Virus record (IMG/VR): IMGVR_UViG_3300020469_000021
Location: 40,957-104,956 of that record
Origin: a virus
Length of the DNA: 64,000 nt
Strand: one strand, 5' to 3'
Positions 32,799 to 33,313 of this stretch are shown here, piece by piece. A program made the translations under genes and the position numbers. The notes under the pieces are model-generated. The model did not search any database and was not told the origin of the DNA. It saw only the letters and a list, made by a program, of their open reading frames with translations. Each line of letters begins with the position of its first letter. Within the stretch, counting starts at the first letter, position 1.

Positions 32799-32827
32799 TT
32801 GACAAATATCAAATATTGTAGTATGAT
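32799..32827 (+). promoter_or_regulatory. Strong sigma70 promoter for ncRNA locus
   Basis: TTGACA-17-TATGAT; boxA-like GATCTTTAACA at 32877-32887. Confidence 0.8.
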
Positions 32828-32893
32828 ATATAAATAATCAAAATTGAGAACCAAACTCAAATAAATAAAATAAATCGATCTTTAACATTTTAA

Positions 32894-33313
32894 TTTTCCA
32901 AGAGGCAGGACAAGCAATGGAGTTGAAAAACCTTAAATGGTTAGTAAGAAAATTGCTGGAGAGCCTTTAGAAGGACTGAAGTTACCTATAGAGCTTAAGT
33001 AGTTACTGAAGAAAATTTTTTCACTTTTATTTTCCTAGCTACTACTTCGTATGAAGTAAGTTTCGCAAAAGGAGTTACTGACGAAATTCACTCTTGGAAA
33101 ACACTTTGGAAGGGCTTATAATCCTTCCTGTGGGTGACTGAACTAATCCTGTCGTGAGCGGGATAAAGTATGCAAATTCCCTGTGGTAGGGTAGGTAGAG
33201 TCCAATCGGATGAGCTTAGTACGATTCCAAGTATAGTTTGTAGTTCGAAGTAGGTAATCCTGAACTGATGTTCACGCCGAAAAGTTGGAGGTATACAGTA
33301 GTCCTCCCCCACA
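32894..33313 (+). ncRNA. Large (~420 nt) multi-helix structured ncRNA, family unassigned (ROOL/GOLLD-like class possible)
   Basis: 11-bp closing helix 32894-32904/33091-33101, about ten internal hairpins, second domain closed by TGTGGG/CCCACA; no credible ORF. Confidence 0.75.

What the first reader, a model, noticed from the sequence alone, without database searches (positions are those of the whole stretch)
32799..33313. Large structured ncRNA with its own promoter and a boxA-like leader
Seen: TTGACA-17-TATGAT promoter, then GATCTTTAACA, then about 420 nt without a credible ORF. Helices include TTTTCCAAGAG/CTCTTGGAAAA, AGCAAT/ATTGCT, AGTAGTTA/TAGCTACT, TACTTC/GAAGTA, GGAAGGG/TCCTTCC, ATCCTG/CGGGAT, TAGTTC/GAACTG, GGAGG/CCTCC and TGTGGG/CCCACA, forming two closed domains. 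Established: boxA (TGCTCTTTAACA in E. coli rrn) recruits Nus antitermination factors for untranslated RNAs, and ROOL and GOLLD are large phage-associated RNAs of unknown function. Inference: a compact member of such a class, or a new one.
Basis: partly seen in the sequence, partly recalled or inferred. Interest (0 to 1): 0.75.

Follow-up and report, generated by a model that had tools for sequence, protein, structure and literature searches.

The report
Stand-alone phage manA RNA gene, enlarged
The flagged stretch is a real, separately transcribed folded RNA of an uncultured marine phage. Its core is the already catalogued manA RNA (reported in 2026 to build RNA-only cages in vitro), here placed behind an rRNA-style boxA-like leader and enlarged by a lineage-specific 208-base extra domain.

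Summary
The promoter, GATCTTTAACA and all the named helix strings are at the stated places.

- **Second domain.** 33108-33317 is the known manA RNA (Rfam RF01745, 76.3 bits against a cut-off of 55.2).
- **First domain.** 32894-33101 is an insertion. The closest relative, L002, runs from the same leader straight into manA. Ten other loci carry unrelated, helix-closed inserts at exactly this linker.
- **Transcription unit.** It runs about 700 nt, from a start near 32834 to an intrinsic terminator at 33492-33532. After manA it also holds an uncatalogued pseudoknotted motif at 33406-33475.
- **Clade architecture.** In 26 of 26 unique related phage loci with intact upstream sequence (28 with L004 and L062), manA follows a conserved boxA-like G[A/T]TCTTT[A/T]ANA. 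At least 28 of 30 loci then have a terminator and a fresh promoter. In 22 cyanophage-type loci and in P-SSM2 there is no boxA.
- **Reading.** This is a free-standing stable RNA gene, not a 5' UTR switch.
- **Not shown.** Nus recruitment and cage assembly are inferred.
- **RNA libraries.** Contigs from RNA libraries of four studies cover parts of the unit.
- **Earlier scan notes.** This scan has reported free-standing manA genes with boxA leaders in many other genomes.
- **New in this window.** The large insert, which is better conserved than manA itself, and the 3' motif.

The parts
32799..32827 (+). Sigma-70-type promoter: -35 TTGACA at 32799-32804, 17-bp spacer, -10 TATGAT at 32822-32827. 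The predicted start is near 32834.
   Evidence: 11 of 12 consensus positions. The same promoter is aligned in L002 and in most related loci. An RNA-library contig begins at 32839 (X16 record 2).
32844..32860 (+). Leader hairpin TTGAG-AACCAAA-CTCAA.
   Evidence: Present in 22 of 26 unique related loci. The stem covaries: TTAAG/CTTAA in L015 and L019, TCGAG/CTCGA in L041. In a subset the loop pairs with a downstream stretch as a pseudoknot, but not in this window.
32877..32893 (+). boxA-like single-stranded element GATCTTTAACA (32877-32887), with a conserved TTTTAA extension.
   Evidence: Matches 10 of 11 positions of the gamma-proteobacterial boxA consensus GYTCTTTAANA, with the critical C4 present. 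Matches 14 of 17 positions of the E. coli rrnB leader. Present in 26 of 26 loci and accounts for 28 of 38 matches in 540 kb of related DNA. No conserved complementary partner in the transcript.
32894..33101 (+). The predicted fold is a five-arm junction.
   Evidence: Absent from the nearest relative L002, which joins the leader directly to manA. Single copy in the phage. Ten other loci have unrelated helix-closed inserts of 54-163 nt at the same linker. The same insert at the same site in metagenome contig L084 is 94.7% identical, against 86.2% for the leader and 84.7% for manA. Differences avoid the helices.
32917..32970 (+). Mini-ORF of 17 codons (MELKNLKWLVRKLLESL) inside the insert, with AGGA six bases upstream. 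It is probably not translated.
   Evidence: identical in L084, where loss of C32906 creates GGAGG. However, the start codon lies inside the predicted AGCAAT/ATTGCT helix, and no other insert has such an ORF.
   Evidence: 76.3 bits against a gathering score of 55.2, E = 1e-17, over the full model 1-192. In 28 aligned sequences, 23 of 53 pairs show compensatory changes. No shuffle out of 500 reaches the observed covariation.
33318..33405 (+). Spacer with a hairpin, shared only with the near relative L002.
   Evidence: G-C pairs in L002 are G-U pairs here.
33406..33475 (+). Uncatalogued pseudoknotted RNA motif: GGGTATTGT(A/G)GCGG, a variable hairpin, CTGGTTA, CATCGCCC, then a hairpin with loop GTAAYYACATAAAAGC. 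TGTAG pairs with CTACA of that loop.
   Evidence: Found at 32 viral-contig loci, 26 of them unique copies that could be parsed. Pseudoknot, P2 and P3 are paired in 23-26 of 26 copies with several pair types each. No Rfam match at E up to 5 here or up to 1 in four other loci. Single copy in this phage. An RNA-library contig bridges the manA end and this motif, 33275-33445.
33492..33532 (+). Intrinsic terminator: 13-bp stem with 8 G-C pairs, followed by a T-run. It ends the unit.
   Evidence: Equivalent terminators follow manA in at least 28 of 30 unique related loci, each followed at once by a new TTGAC promoter.

Best explanation
The region is one autonomous non-coding transcription unit of about 700 nt in an uncultured marine phage.

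**Order of elements**
1. A near-consensus host-type promoter.
2. A leader hairpin.
3. A single-stranded boxA-like element.
4. A lineage-specific 208-nt helix-closed accessory domain.
5. The manA RNA core.
6. A spacer.
7. A second, uncatalogued pseudoknotted motif.
8. An intrinsic terminator.

**Shown**
- Membership of the manA family.
- The insert nature of the first domain.
- Conservation of the leader, the terminator and the following promoter across the clade.

**Inferred**
- The RNA is a stable, abundant product that acts in trans, not a 5' UTR switch.
- The boxA-like element recruits host NusB/NusE-type factors, as in rRNA operons and some CRISPR arrays. This would protect the untranslated transcript from Rho and aid co-transcriptional folding.
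- The manA core oligomerises into pentamer-based closed assemblies, as reported in vitro for other family members.
- The linker between boxA and the first helix of the core tolerates expansion domains. These would ride on the assembly without disturbing the core.
For: **manA membership**
- The Rfam score is above the cut-off over the full model.
- There is rich covariation among 28 sequences.

**Insert**
- L002 lacks it.
- Ten loci have unrelated, helix-closed inserts at the same site.
- L084 carries the same insert at 94.7% identity, with flanks at 85-86%.

**Stand-alone unit**
- A terminator lies 8-180 nt after manA and a new promoter follows it in at least 28 of 30 loci.
- The promoter is near-consensus. 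Many relatives have A-tracts upstream of -35.

**boxA-like element**
- It is present in 26 of 26 loci, and is kept even where the hairpin is absent.
- It matches the consensus at 10 or 11 of 11 positions and the E. coli rrnB leader at 14 of 17.
- It is specific to manA leaders (28 of 38 matches).
- It has no pairing partner in the transcript.
- It is absent from 22 of 22 cyanophage-type manA loci and from P-SSM2.
- There is precedent for boxA acting on non-coding transcripts: GTTCTTTAAAA raised pre-crRNA about 10-fold (PMC7862264).

**Assembly**
- The cryo-EM preprint reports oligomers for this family.

**RNA libraries**
- Contigs from four studies cover 32819-33445. One contig at depth 35 spans leader, insert and the start of manA.
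Against: - No experiment here shows Nus binding, Rho sensitivity, RNA ends, abundance or oligomerisation for this RNA.
- The window's element has A at boxA position 2, where the consensus has a pyrimidine.
- The host is unknown, so its own rrn boxA cannot be compared.
- One GATCTTTAACA in 64 kb is not above chance by itself.
- RNA-library contigs could derive from contaminating DNA.
- Cage formation was shown only in vitro, at high RNA and Mg concentrations, and for other family members.
- The ORF84 family often lies downstream, which leaves room for a cis effect.
- The manA hit of this window has two helices with non-standard pairs.
Confidence: 0.6

Rival explanations
1. Classical reading: manA is a cis-regulatory riboswitch. 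The downstream terminator would be its expression platform, controlling read-through into the 84-aa gene at 33569.
For: - Rfam and Weinberg et al. 2010 file manA as a cis-regulatory riboswitch candidate.
- In P-SSM2 and many cyanophage-type loci an ORF starts 15-40 nt after manA.
- ORF84 homologues follow manA in many loci of this clade.
- The G-rich 3' arm of the terminator could in principle pair with the CCCCCAC strand of the manA closing helix (sequence inspection).
Against: - The terminator lies 8-180 nt from the core and shows no conserved alternative pairing with it.
- In this window, 175 nt holding another independent motif lie between core and terminator.
- The next gene has its own promoter directly after the T-run in nearly all loci.
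- In L003-L005 another ORF separates manA from ORF84.
- Some cyanophage-type copies are followed by tRNA genes or terminators rather than ORFs.
Confidence: 0.12
2. The RNA is a stand-alone gene, but the conserved G[A/T]TCTTT[A/T]ANA-TTTTAA element is not a Nus site. It would be a processing site (for example for RNase E), a binding site for a phage protein or Hfq-like factor, or a DNA-level signal.
For: - The conserved stretch (17 nt) is longer than boxA.
- It is A/U-rich and single-stranded, as RNase E sites are.
- Position 2 is A in most copies.
- The host is unknown.
- The resemblance to boxA rests on sequence only.
Against: - The invariant positions G1, T3, C4, T5, T6, T7 and A9 are the boxA core, including the critical C4.
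- Four loci match the consensus perfectly (GTTCTTTAATA).
- The extension TTTA also matches the E. coli rrnB leader.
- The position, shortly after the start of an untranslated structured RNA and after a hairpin, mirrors the boxB-boxA order of rrn leaders.
- There is no -10-like element at the distance expected for a MotA-type promoter (sequence inspection).
Confidence: 0.2
3. The first domain is not an RNA domain. It would be a small gene cassette (the 17-codon ORF at 32917-32970) or a selfish MITE-like insertion that happens to be tolerated there.
For: - It has 11-bp terminal inverted repeats.
- It is present in some relatives and absent in others.
- The ORF with its Shine-Dalgarno-like AGGA is 100% conserved in L084, whose variant has GGAGG.
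- The insert is more conserved than its flanks, consistent with recent lateral movement.
Against: - It is single copy in the phage.
- There is no target-site duplication at the junctions.
- Ten unrelated inserts share the same site and the same closed-helix build, which points to structural tolerance rather than transposition.
- The start codon is buried in a predicted helix.
- A 17-codon frame is common by chance in AT-rich DNA.
- No other insert has a comparable ORF.
- Two G-U pairs in the L004 insert stem mark it as RNA-level pairing on the + strand.
Confidence: 0.08

Closest known systems
manA RNA motif (Rfam RF01745; Weinberg et al. 2010, PMC2864571; cryo-EM assemblies in Ren et al. 2026, bioRxiv 10.64898/2026.07.01.735769)
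   Same: Positions 33108-33317 match the full covariance model above the curated cut-off. They keep the conserved core nucleotides and helices. Relatives show compensatory changes in those helices. It occurs in marine phages, as described for the family.
   Different: It is catalogued as a 5' UTR element. In cyanophage P-SSM2 and 22 cyanophage-type loci the promoter abuts the core and an ORF often follows. Here it is a promoter-to-terminator unit with a leader of about 60 nt (hairpin plus boxA-like element). It also carries a 208-nt inserted domain and a 3' extension holding another motif.
rRNA-operon leader / Nus antitermination signal (boxB-boxA-boxC; boxA consensus GYTCTTTAANA, Baniulyte et al. 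2017, 10.1101/091223), and boxA upstream of CRISPR arrays (PMC7862264)
   Same: A short single-stranded element matches 10 or 11 of 11 boxA positions. It lies soon after the start of a long untranslated structured transcript and is preceded by a hairpin. It matches 14 of 17 positions of the E. coli rrnB leader.
   Different: It is phage-encoded, in front of a 0.3-0.7 kb RNA rather than a 5-kb operon. Most copies have A at position 2. No boxC equivalent was established. Binding by NusB/NusE was not tested, and the host is unknown.
ROOL, GOLLD and OLE large ornate RNAs (Kretsch et al. 2025, PMC12286853)
   Same: They are often phage-associated, free-standing structured RNAs that form RNA-only homo-oligomeric cages in vitro. 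manA is now reported to behave in the same way.
   Different: There is no sequence or covariance-model similarity. The manA core is about 200 nt, against 500-800 nt. The window's extra length comes from add-on modules, not from one large conserved fold.
Expansion segments of rRNA and variable arms of structured RNAs
   Same: Helix-closed, lineage-specific insertions of unrelated sequence sit at one permissive site and leave the conserved core untouched.
   Different: The site here is a 5' linker outside the core, and the inserts are absent from most family members. One insert (this window and L084) is better conserved than the core.

Membership tests
manA RNA (RF01745) | Covariance-model score at or above Rfam's gathering score over the full model | tested here: met
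   76.3 bits against 55.2, model positions 1-192, E = 1.2e-17.
manA RNA (RF01745) | Consensus helices kept, with compensatory changes among relatives | tested here: met
   23 of 53 pairs have changes on both sides in 28 sequences. No shuffle out of 500 reaches the observed measures (helices 7 and 8 in that call were mis-registered by one column through my own error).
manA RNA (RF01745) | Conserved core nucleotides (GUGACUGAA, UAAGGU-type junction, GGUAUACAGUA loop) | tested here: met
   The alignment to the model, and the invariant columns.
manA RNA (RF01745) | Position in the 5' UTR of a protein gene (catalogued type 'Cis-reg') | tested here: not met
   An intrinsic terminator at 33492-33532 and a separate promoter precede the next ORF. 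This feature is contextual rather than structural, so family membership stands.
manA RNA (RF01745) | Homo-oligomerisation into pentamer-based closed assemblies | not testable with these tools
   Reported in vitro for other members only.
boxA / Nus antitermination signal | Match to GYTCTTTAANA with C at position 4 | tested here: inconclusive
   The window matches 10 of 11 positions (A at position 2) and C4 is present. Four relatives match 11 of 11.
boxA / Nus antitermination signal | Located in the early transcribed leader of an untranslated RNA and conserved there | tested here: met
   26 of 26 unique loci, 43-50 nt after the -10 element, or about 16 nt where the hairpin is lacking. 28 of 38 matches in 540 kb are at manA leaders.
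boxA / Nus antitermination signal | Binding of NusB/NusE and resistance to Rho | not testable with these tools
   No experiment. The host is unknown.
ROOL / GOLLD | Match to the family covariance models | tested here: not met
   No hit at gathering threshold or at E up to 5.
Riboswitch with a terminator expression platform | Terminator overlapping or competing with the aptamer through conserved alternative pairing | tested here: not met
   The distance from core to terminator varies from 8 to 180 nt with unrelated sequence between, and no conserved alternative pairing was seen.
MITE-like mobile element (for the insert) | Terminal inverted repeats, target-site duplication and multiple genomic copies | tested here: not met
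   The inverted repeat is present, but there is no duplication at the junctions and only one copy in the 105-kb record.

The most novel reading that the evidence does not exclude
In this clade of marine phages, manA would be an rRNA-style, Nus-assisted, highly expressed structural RNA that assembles into closed multimers during infection. The linker behind boxA and the 3' tail would be docking sites where phages swap accessory RNA modules. Examples are the 208-nt five-arm domain and the new pseudoknotted motif, which elsewhere precedes exonuclease-like genes. Each particle would then display or enclose tens of copies of an add-on RNA.
Probability: 0.2. Interest if true: 0.85.

Novelty: new variant of a known kind. 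Interest (0 to 1): 0.55.

Why it matters
manA has had no known function since 2010 and is still catalogued as a gene-leader switch. A 2026 preprint shows that it can build RNA-only cages in vitro.

A whole clade of phage copies are promoter-to-terminator genes with an rRNA-like leader. This argues that the RNA itself is the product and yields direct tests: Nus binding, Rho sensitivity, abundance, and assembly with and without the add-on domains.

The hot spot for helix-closed inserts, and an insert that is better conserved than the core, suggest modular decoration of a self-assembling RNA. That is relevant both to phage biology and to RNA nanostructure design.

The 3' motif is a separate candidate for a new regulatory RNA class.

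Tried and rejected
- **blastn against phages.** A search of 32575-33823 against 50,697 phage records found nothing.
- **Relatives of the upstream ORF.** The search for relatives of the 71-aa upstream ORF found none.
- **Cultured relatives.** Terminase and rIIA give only matches of 31% identity or less, so the host stays unknown.
- **Host from genome contigs.** The scan found this manA clade only on two MAG contigs, labelled Neomarinimicrobiota and Rickettsiales. These are probably mis-binned phage DNA, and I rejected them as host evidence.
- **Weak Rfam matches.** PyrR, SNORD14 and JPX_2 (17-21 bits, E = 2-3) are noise.
- **Insert as a repeat.** There is no second copy in the phage record. The 11-mer with one mismatch occurs 9 times in the window, but with no element-like context.
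- **Insert homology.** It is not homologous to the other inserts nor to any fetched locus except L084. L083 is a chance 22-mer match in coding DNA.
- **Partner for the boxA-like element.** There is no conserved complementary partner in the transcript. No -10 element lies at the spacing of a MotA-type promoter.
- **Uncovered flanks in RNA libraries.** RNA-library contigs did not cover the flanking genes 32600-32804 and 33543-33800.
- **Supplement of Weinberg et al.** The stored part holds no leader sequence or boxA remark for manA.
- **Neighbour ORFs.** PHROG and Pfam searches give no function for ORF84.

Full report
**Setting.** The window is part of a 104,956-bp IMG/VR virus record. It has about 33% G+C and encodes rIIA, rIIB, DNA ligase, a large terminase and one tRNA. 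No cultured phage is close; the best protein identities are 31% or less. The host is unknown.

**Check of the observation.**
- The promoter TTGACA-17-TATGAT sits at 32799-32827 and matches 11 of 12 consensus positions.
- GATCTTTAACA sits at 32877-32887.
- No credible ORF covers the stretch.
- The gene-free region is longer than stated, 32791-33568. It ends with a strong intrinsic terminator at 33492-33532.

**The second domain is manA.**
- Rfam places the full manA model (RF01745) at 33108-33317 with 76.3 bits, against a gathering score of 55.2.
- TAGTTC/GAACTG is not supported, because relatives break it.
- An alignment of 27 related phage copies plus cyanophage P-SSM2 shows compensatory changes in 23 of 53 pairs. 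No shuffle out of 500 reaches the observed covariation.

**The first domain is an insertion.**
- Four related viral contigs were found through the downstream 84-aa ORF. All carry manA.
- The closest, L002, shares the promoter and the leader up to CATTTTAA and then runs straight into the manA core. The window has 208 extra bases at 32894-33101, closed by TTTTCCAAGAG/CTCTTGGAAAA.
- A pattern from the manA 3' core retrieved 34 more viral-contig loci.
- Of 26 unique loci with intact upstream sequence, 16 have the minimal spacing of 12-13 nt between the boxA-like element and the core. Ten have inserts of 54-207 nt at exactly this linker.
- Apart from one related pair (L012 and L026), the inserts are unrelated in sequence. 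Each is closed by a terminal helix of 5-14 bp, 8 bp or more in most.
- The stem in L004 contains G-U pairs, so the pairing is read on the + strand as RNA.
- The window's insert is the largest and occurs once in the phage record.
- One metagenome contig (L084) and contigs from two RNA libraries carry the same insert at the same site.
- Between the window and L084 the insert is 94.7% identical, against 86.2% for promoter plus leader and 84.7% for manA. This means either recent exchange or stronger constraint.
That is about 2% likely by chance if changes were spread evenly, by my own estimate.
- In a two-sequence consensus fold, 11 of 12 differences lie in unpaired positions and one turns G-C into G-U. 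That fold is biased by construction.
- The fold energy of the domain alone is unremarkable (z = -1.08).
- A 17-codon ORF at 32917-32970 with an AGGA upstream is fully conserved. In L084 it gains a GGAGG.
- However, its start codon lies in a predicted helix, and no other insert has such an ORF. I rate translation as unlikely.

**A conserved leader.**
- All 26 unique loci have G[A/T]TCTTT[A/T]A[A/C/T]A followed by (T/G)TTT shortly upstream of the core.
- Twenty-two also have a hairpin TTGAG-loop-CTCAA whose stem covaries.
- In eight or nine loci a G/C-rich insert in the loop is matched by its complement just before the boxA-like element. Examples are GGAT/ATCC, GGGC/GCCC, GGGT/ACCC, GGGGC/GCCCC and AGCT/AGCT, which indicates a pseudoknot. 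The window has the plain hairpin.
- The four loci without the hairpin keep the boxA-like element about 16 nt after the -10 box.
- The published gamma-proteobacterial boxA consensus is GYTCTTTAANA, with a critical C at position 4. The window matches 10 of 11 positions, and four relatives match all 11.
- Against the E. coli rrnB leader read here, 14 of 17 positions agree.
- In 540 kb of related phage DNA, 28 of 38 matches to a relaxed pattern lie in manA leaders.
- The element has no conserved complementary partner in the transcript. This fits a protein-binding site.
- A boxA of sequence GTTCTTTAAAA raised a non-coding CRISPR precursor about 10-fold in Legionella (PMC7862264).
- One match in the window alone would not exceed chance.

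**A stand-alone unit.**
- In at least 28 of 30 unique loci a G+C-rich hairpin with a T-run follows manA after 8-180 nt. The -35 box of the next promoter follows it directly. This rests, partly on my reading of the sequences that the simple finder missed.
- One locus (L013) has an ORF directly after manA.
- In contrast, P-SSM2 has its promoter abutting the core and an ORF 15 nt after it.
- None of 22 cyanophage-type loci has a boxA-like element within 150 nt upstream. Several of those are followed by tRNA genes or terminators rather than ORFs.
- From my own knowledge, not checked here, cyanobacteria lack Rho. That would fit a need for boxA only outside cyanophages.

**RNA libraries.**
- Six marine metatranscriptome runs hold parts of the stretch.
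- Laid contigs from four studies cover 32819-33445. They include:
  - a 100% identical contig starting at 32839;
  - a contig at depth 35 spanning leader, insert and the start of manA;
  - a 100% identical contig bridging the manA end and the 3' motif.
- These are assembled contigs. They show presence in RNA libraries, not ends or levels, and DNA carry-over cannot be excluded.

**The 3' part.**
- Positions 33406-33475 hold a motif that recurs at 32 viral-contig loci. Some of these are elsewhere in phages that also carry manA.
- In 26 unique copies, a 5-bp pseudoknot (TGTRR with YYACA of the last loop), a variable hairpin and a 5-bp terminal hairpin are paired in 23-26 of 26 copies. Each shows several pair types.
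- No Rfam family matches it.
- In other phages it lies about 60 nt upstream of an exonuclease-like gene of about 278 aa, or about 255 nt upstream of a 47-aa lysine-rich ORF.
- Here it is the only copy in the phage and lies inside the manA unit, before the terminator.

**Interpretation.**
This is the known manA RNA in an undescribed gene-like setting, enlarged by add-on modules.
- The most likely mechanism is a stable, highly expressed structural RNA made with rRNA-like signals. The core would self-assemble, as reported in vitro. The 5' linker and 3' tail would carry exchangeable modules.
- Nus recruitment, trans action and assembly are inferences.

**Earlier notes of this scan.** Follow-up notes on many other genomes reached the same reading: free-standing manA genes with boxA leaders, some with extra modules. 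I looked these up after forming my own reading. The insert of this window was not seen elsewhere in the scan.

Noticed in passing
window 33406-33475; also L026, L030, L041, L054-L082, L084:1709-1849: An uncatalogued pseudoknotted RNA motif. Its parts are GGGTATTGTRGCGG, a variable hairpin, CTGGTTA, CATCGCCC, and a hairpin with loop GTAAYYACATAAAAGC. Pseudoknot, P2 and P3 covary in 26 unique copies. There is no Rfam match. Elsewhere it lies about 60 nt upstream of an exonuclease-like gene of about 278 aa (MKTYALDYETYYDKRC...), often with a terminator-like hairpin between. This makes it a riboswitch-like candidate.
   Followed up: partly
L003, L005, L010, L023, L028, L030, L031, L039, L041 (manA leaders): In a subset of relatives, the loop of the leader hairpin carries a G/C-rich insert whose exact complement sits just upstream of the boxA-like element. 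There are five different pair sets. This is a covarying H-type pseudoknot with an A-rich third loop. It is absent from this window.
   Followed up: partly
window 32575-32790 (+): The 71-aa ORF directly upstream of the manA promoter matches sigma-70 region 3 (PF04539, E = 6.5e-8, residues 21-62). It has no PHROG match, and pattern search found no relatives.
   Followed up: partly
L089, L121, L182, L109, L177 (cyanophage-type manA loci): Some cyanophage-type manA copies are followed directly by tRNA or tRNA-like sequence, or by a terminator (L143, L165, L188), not by an ORF. Even there the 5' UTR label does not always fit.
   Followed up: no
window 33115-33121 (loop of the first manA hairpin); L031: The loop contains the palindrome TTATAA. 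L031 has TTGCAA, a double change that keeps self-complementarity, as expected for a homotypic kissing loop. Other relatives replace it by a longer stem with a GATA tetraloop or a CGACGG loop.
   Followed up: no
window 33569-33823 (+) and relatives: The 84-aa ORF (MNTLKEII...) follows the manA unit in many related phages, always behind its own promoter. It has no Pfam or PHROG match. The next ORF, 33823-34221, belongs to the phage L5 gp82 family (PF25735).
   Followed up: partly
L050, L052: Two MAG contigs labelled Rickettsiales and Neomarinimicrobiota carry this manA clade (75-84 bits). They are probably phage contigs binned with bacterial genomes and are not usable as host evidence.
   Followed up: partly
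window 33536-33568: The promoter of the next gene (TTGACT ... TGTCAGTATATA) starts within four bases of the terminator T-run. The same terminator-then-TTGAC arrangement recurs in nearly all related loci.
   Followed up: no
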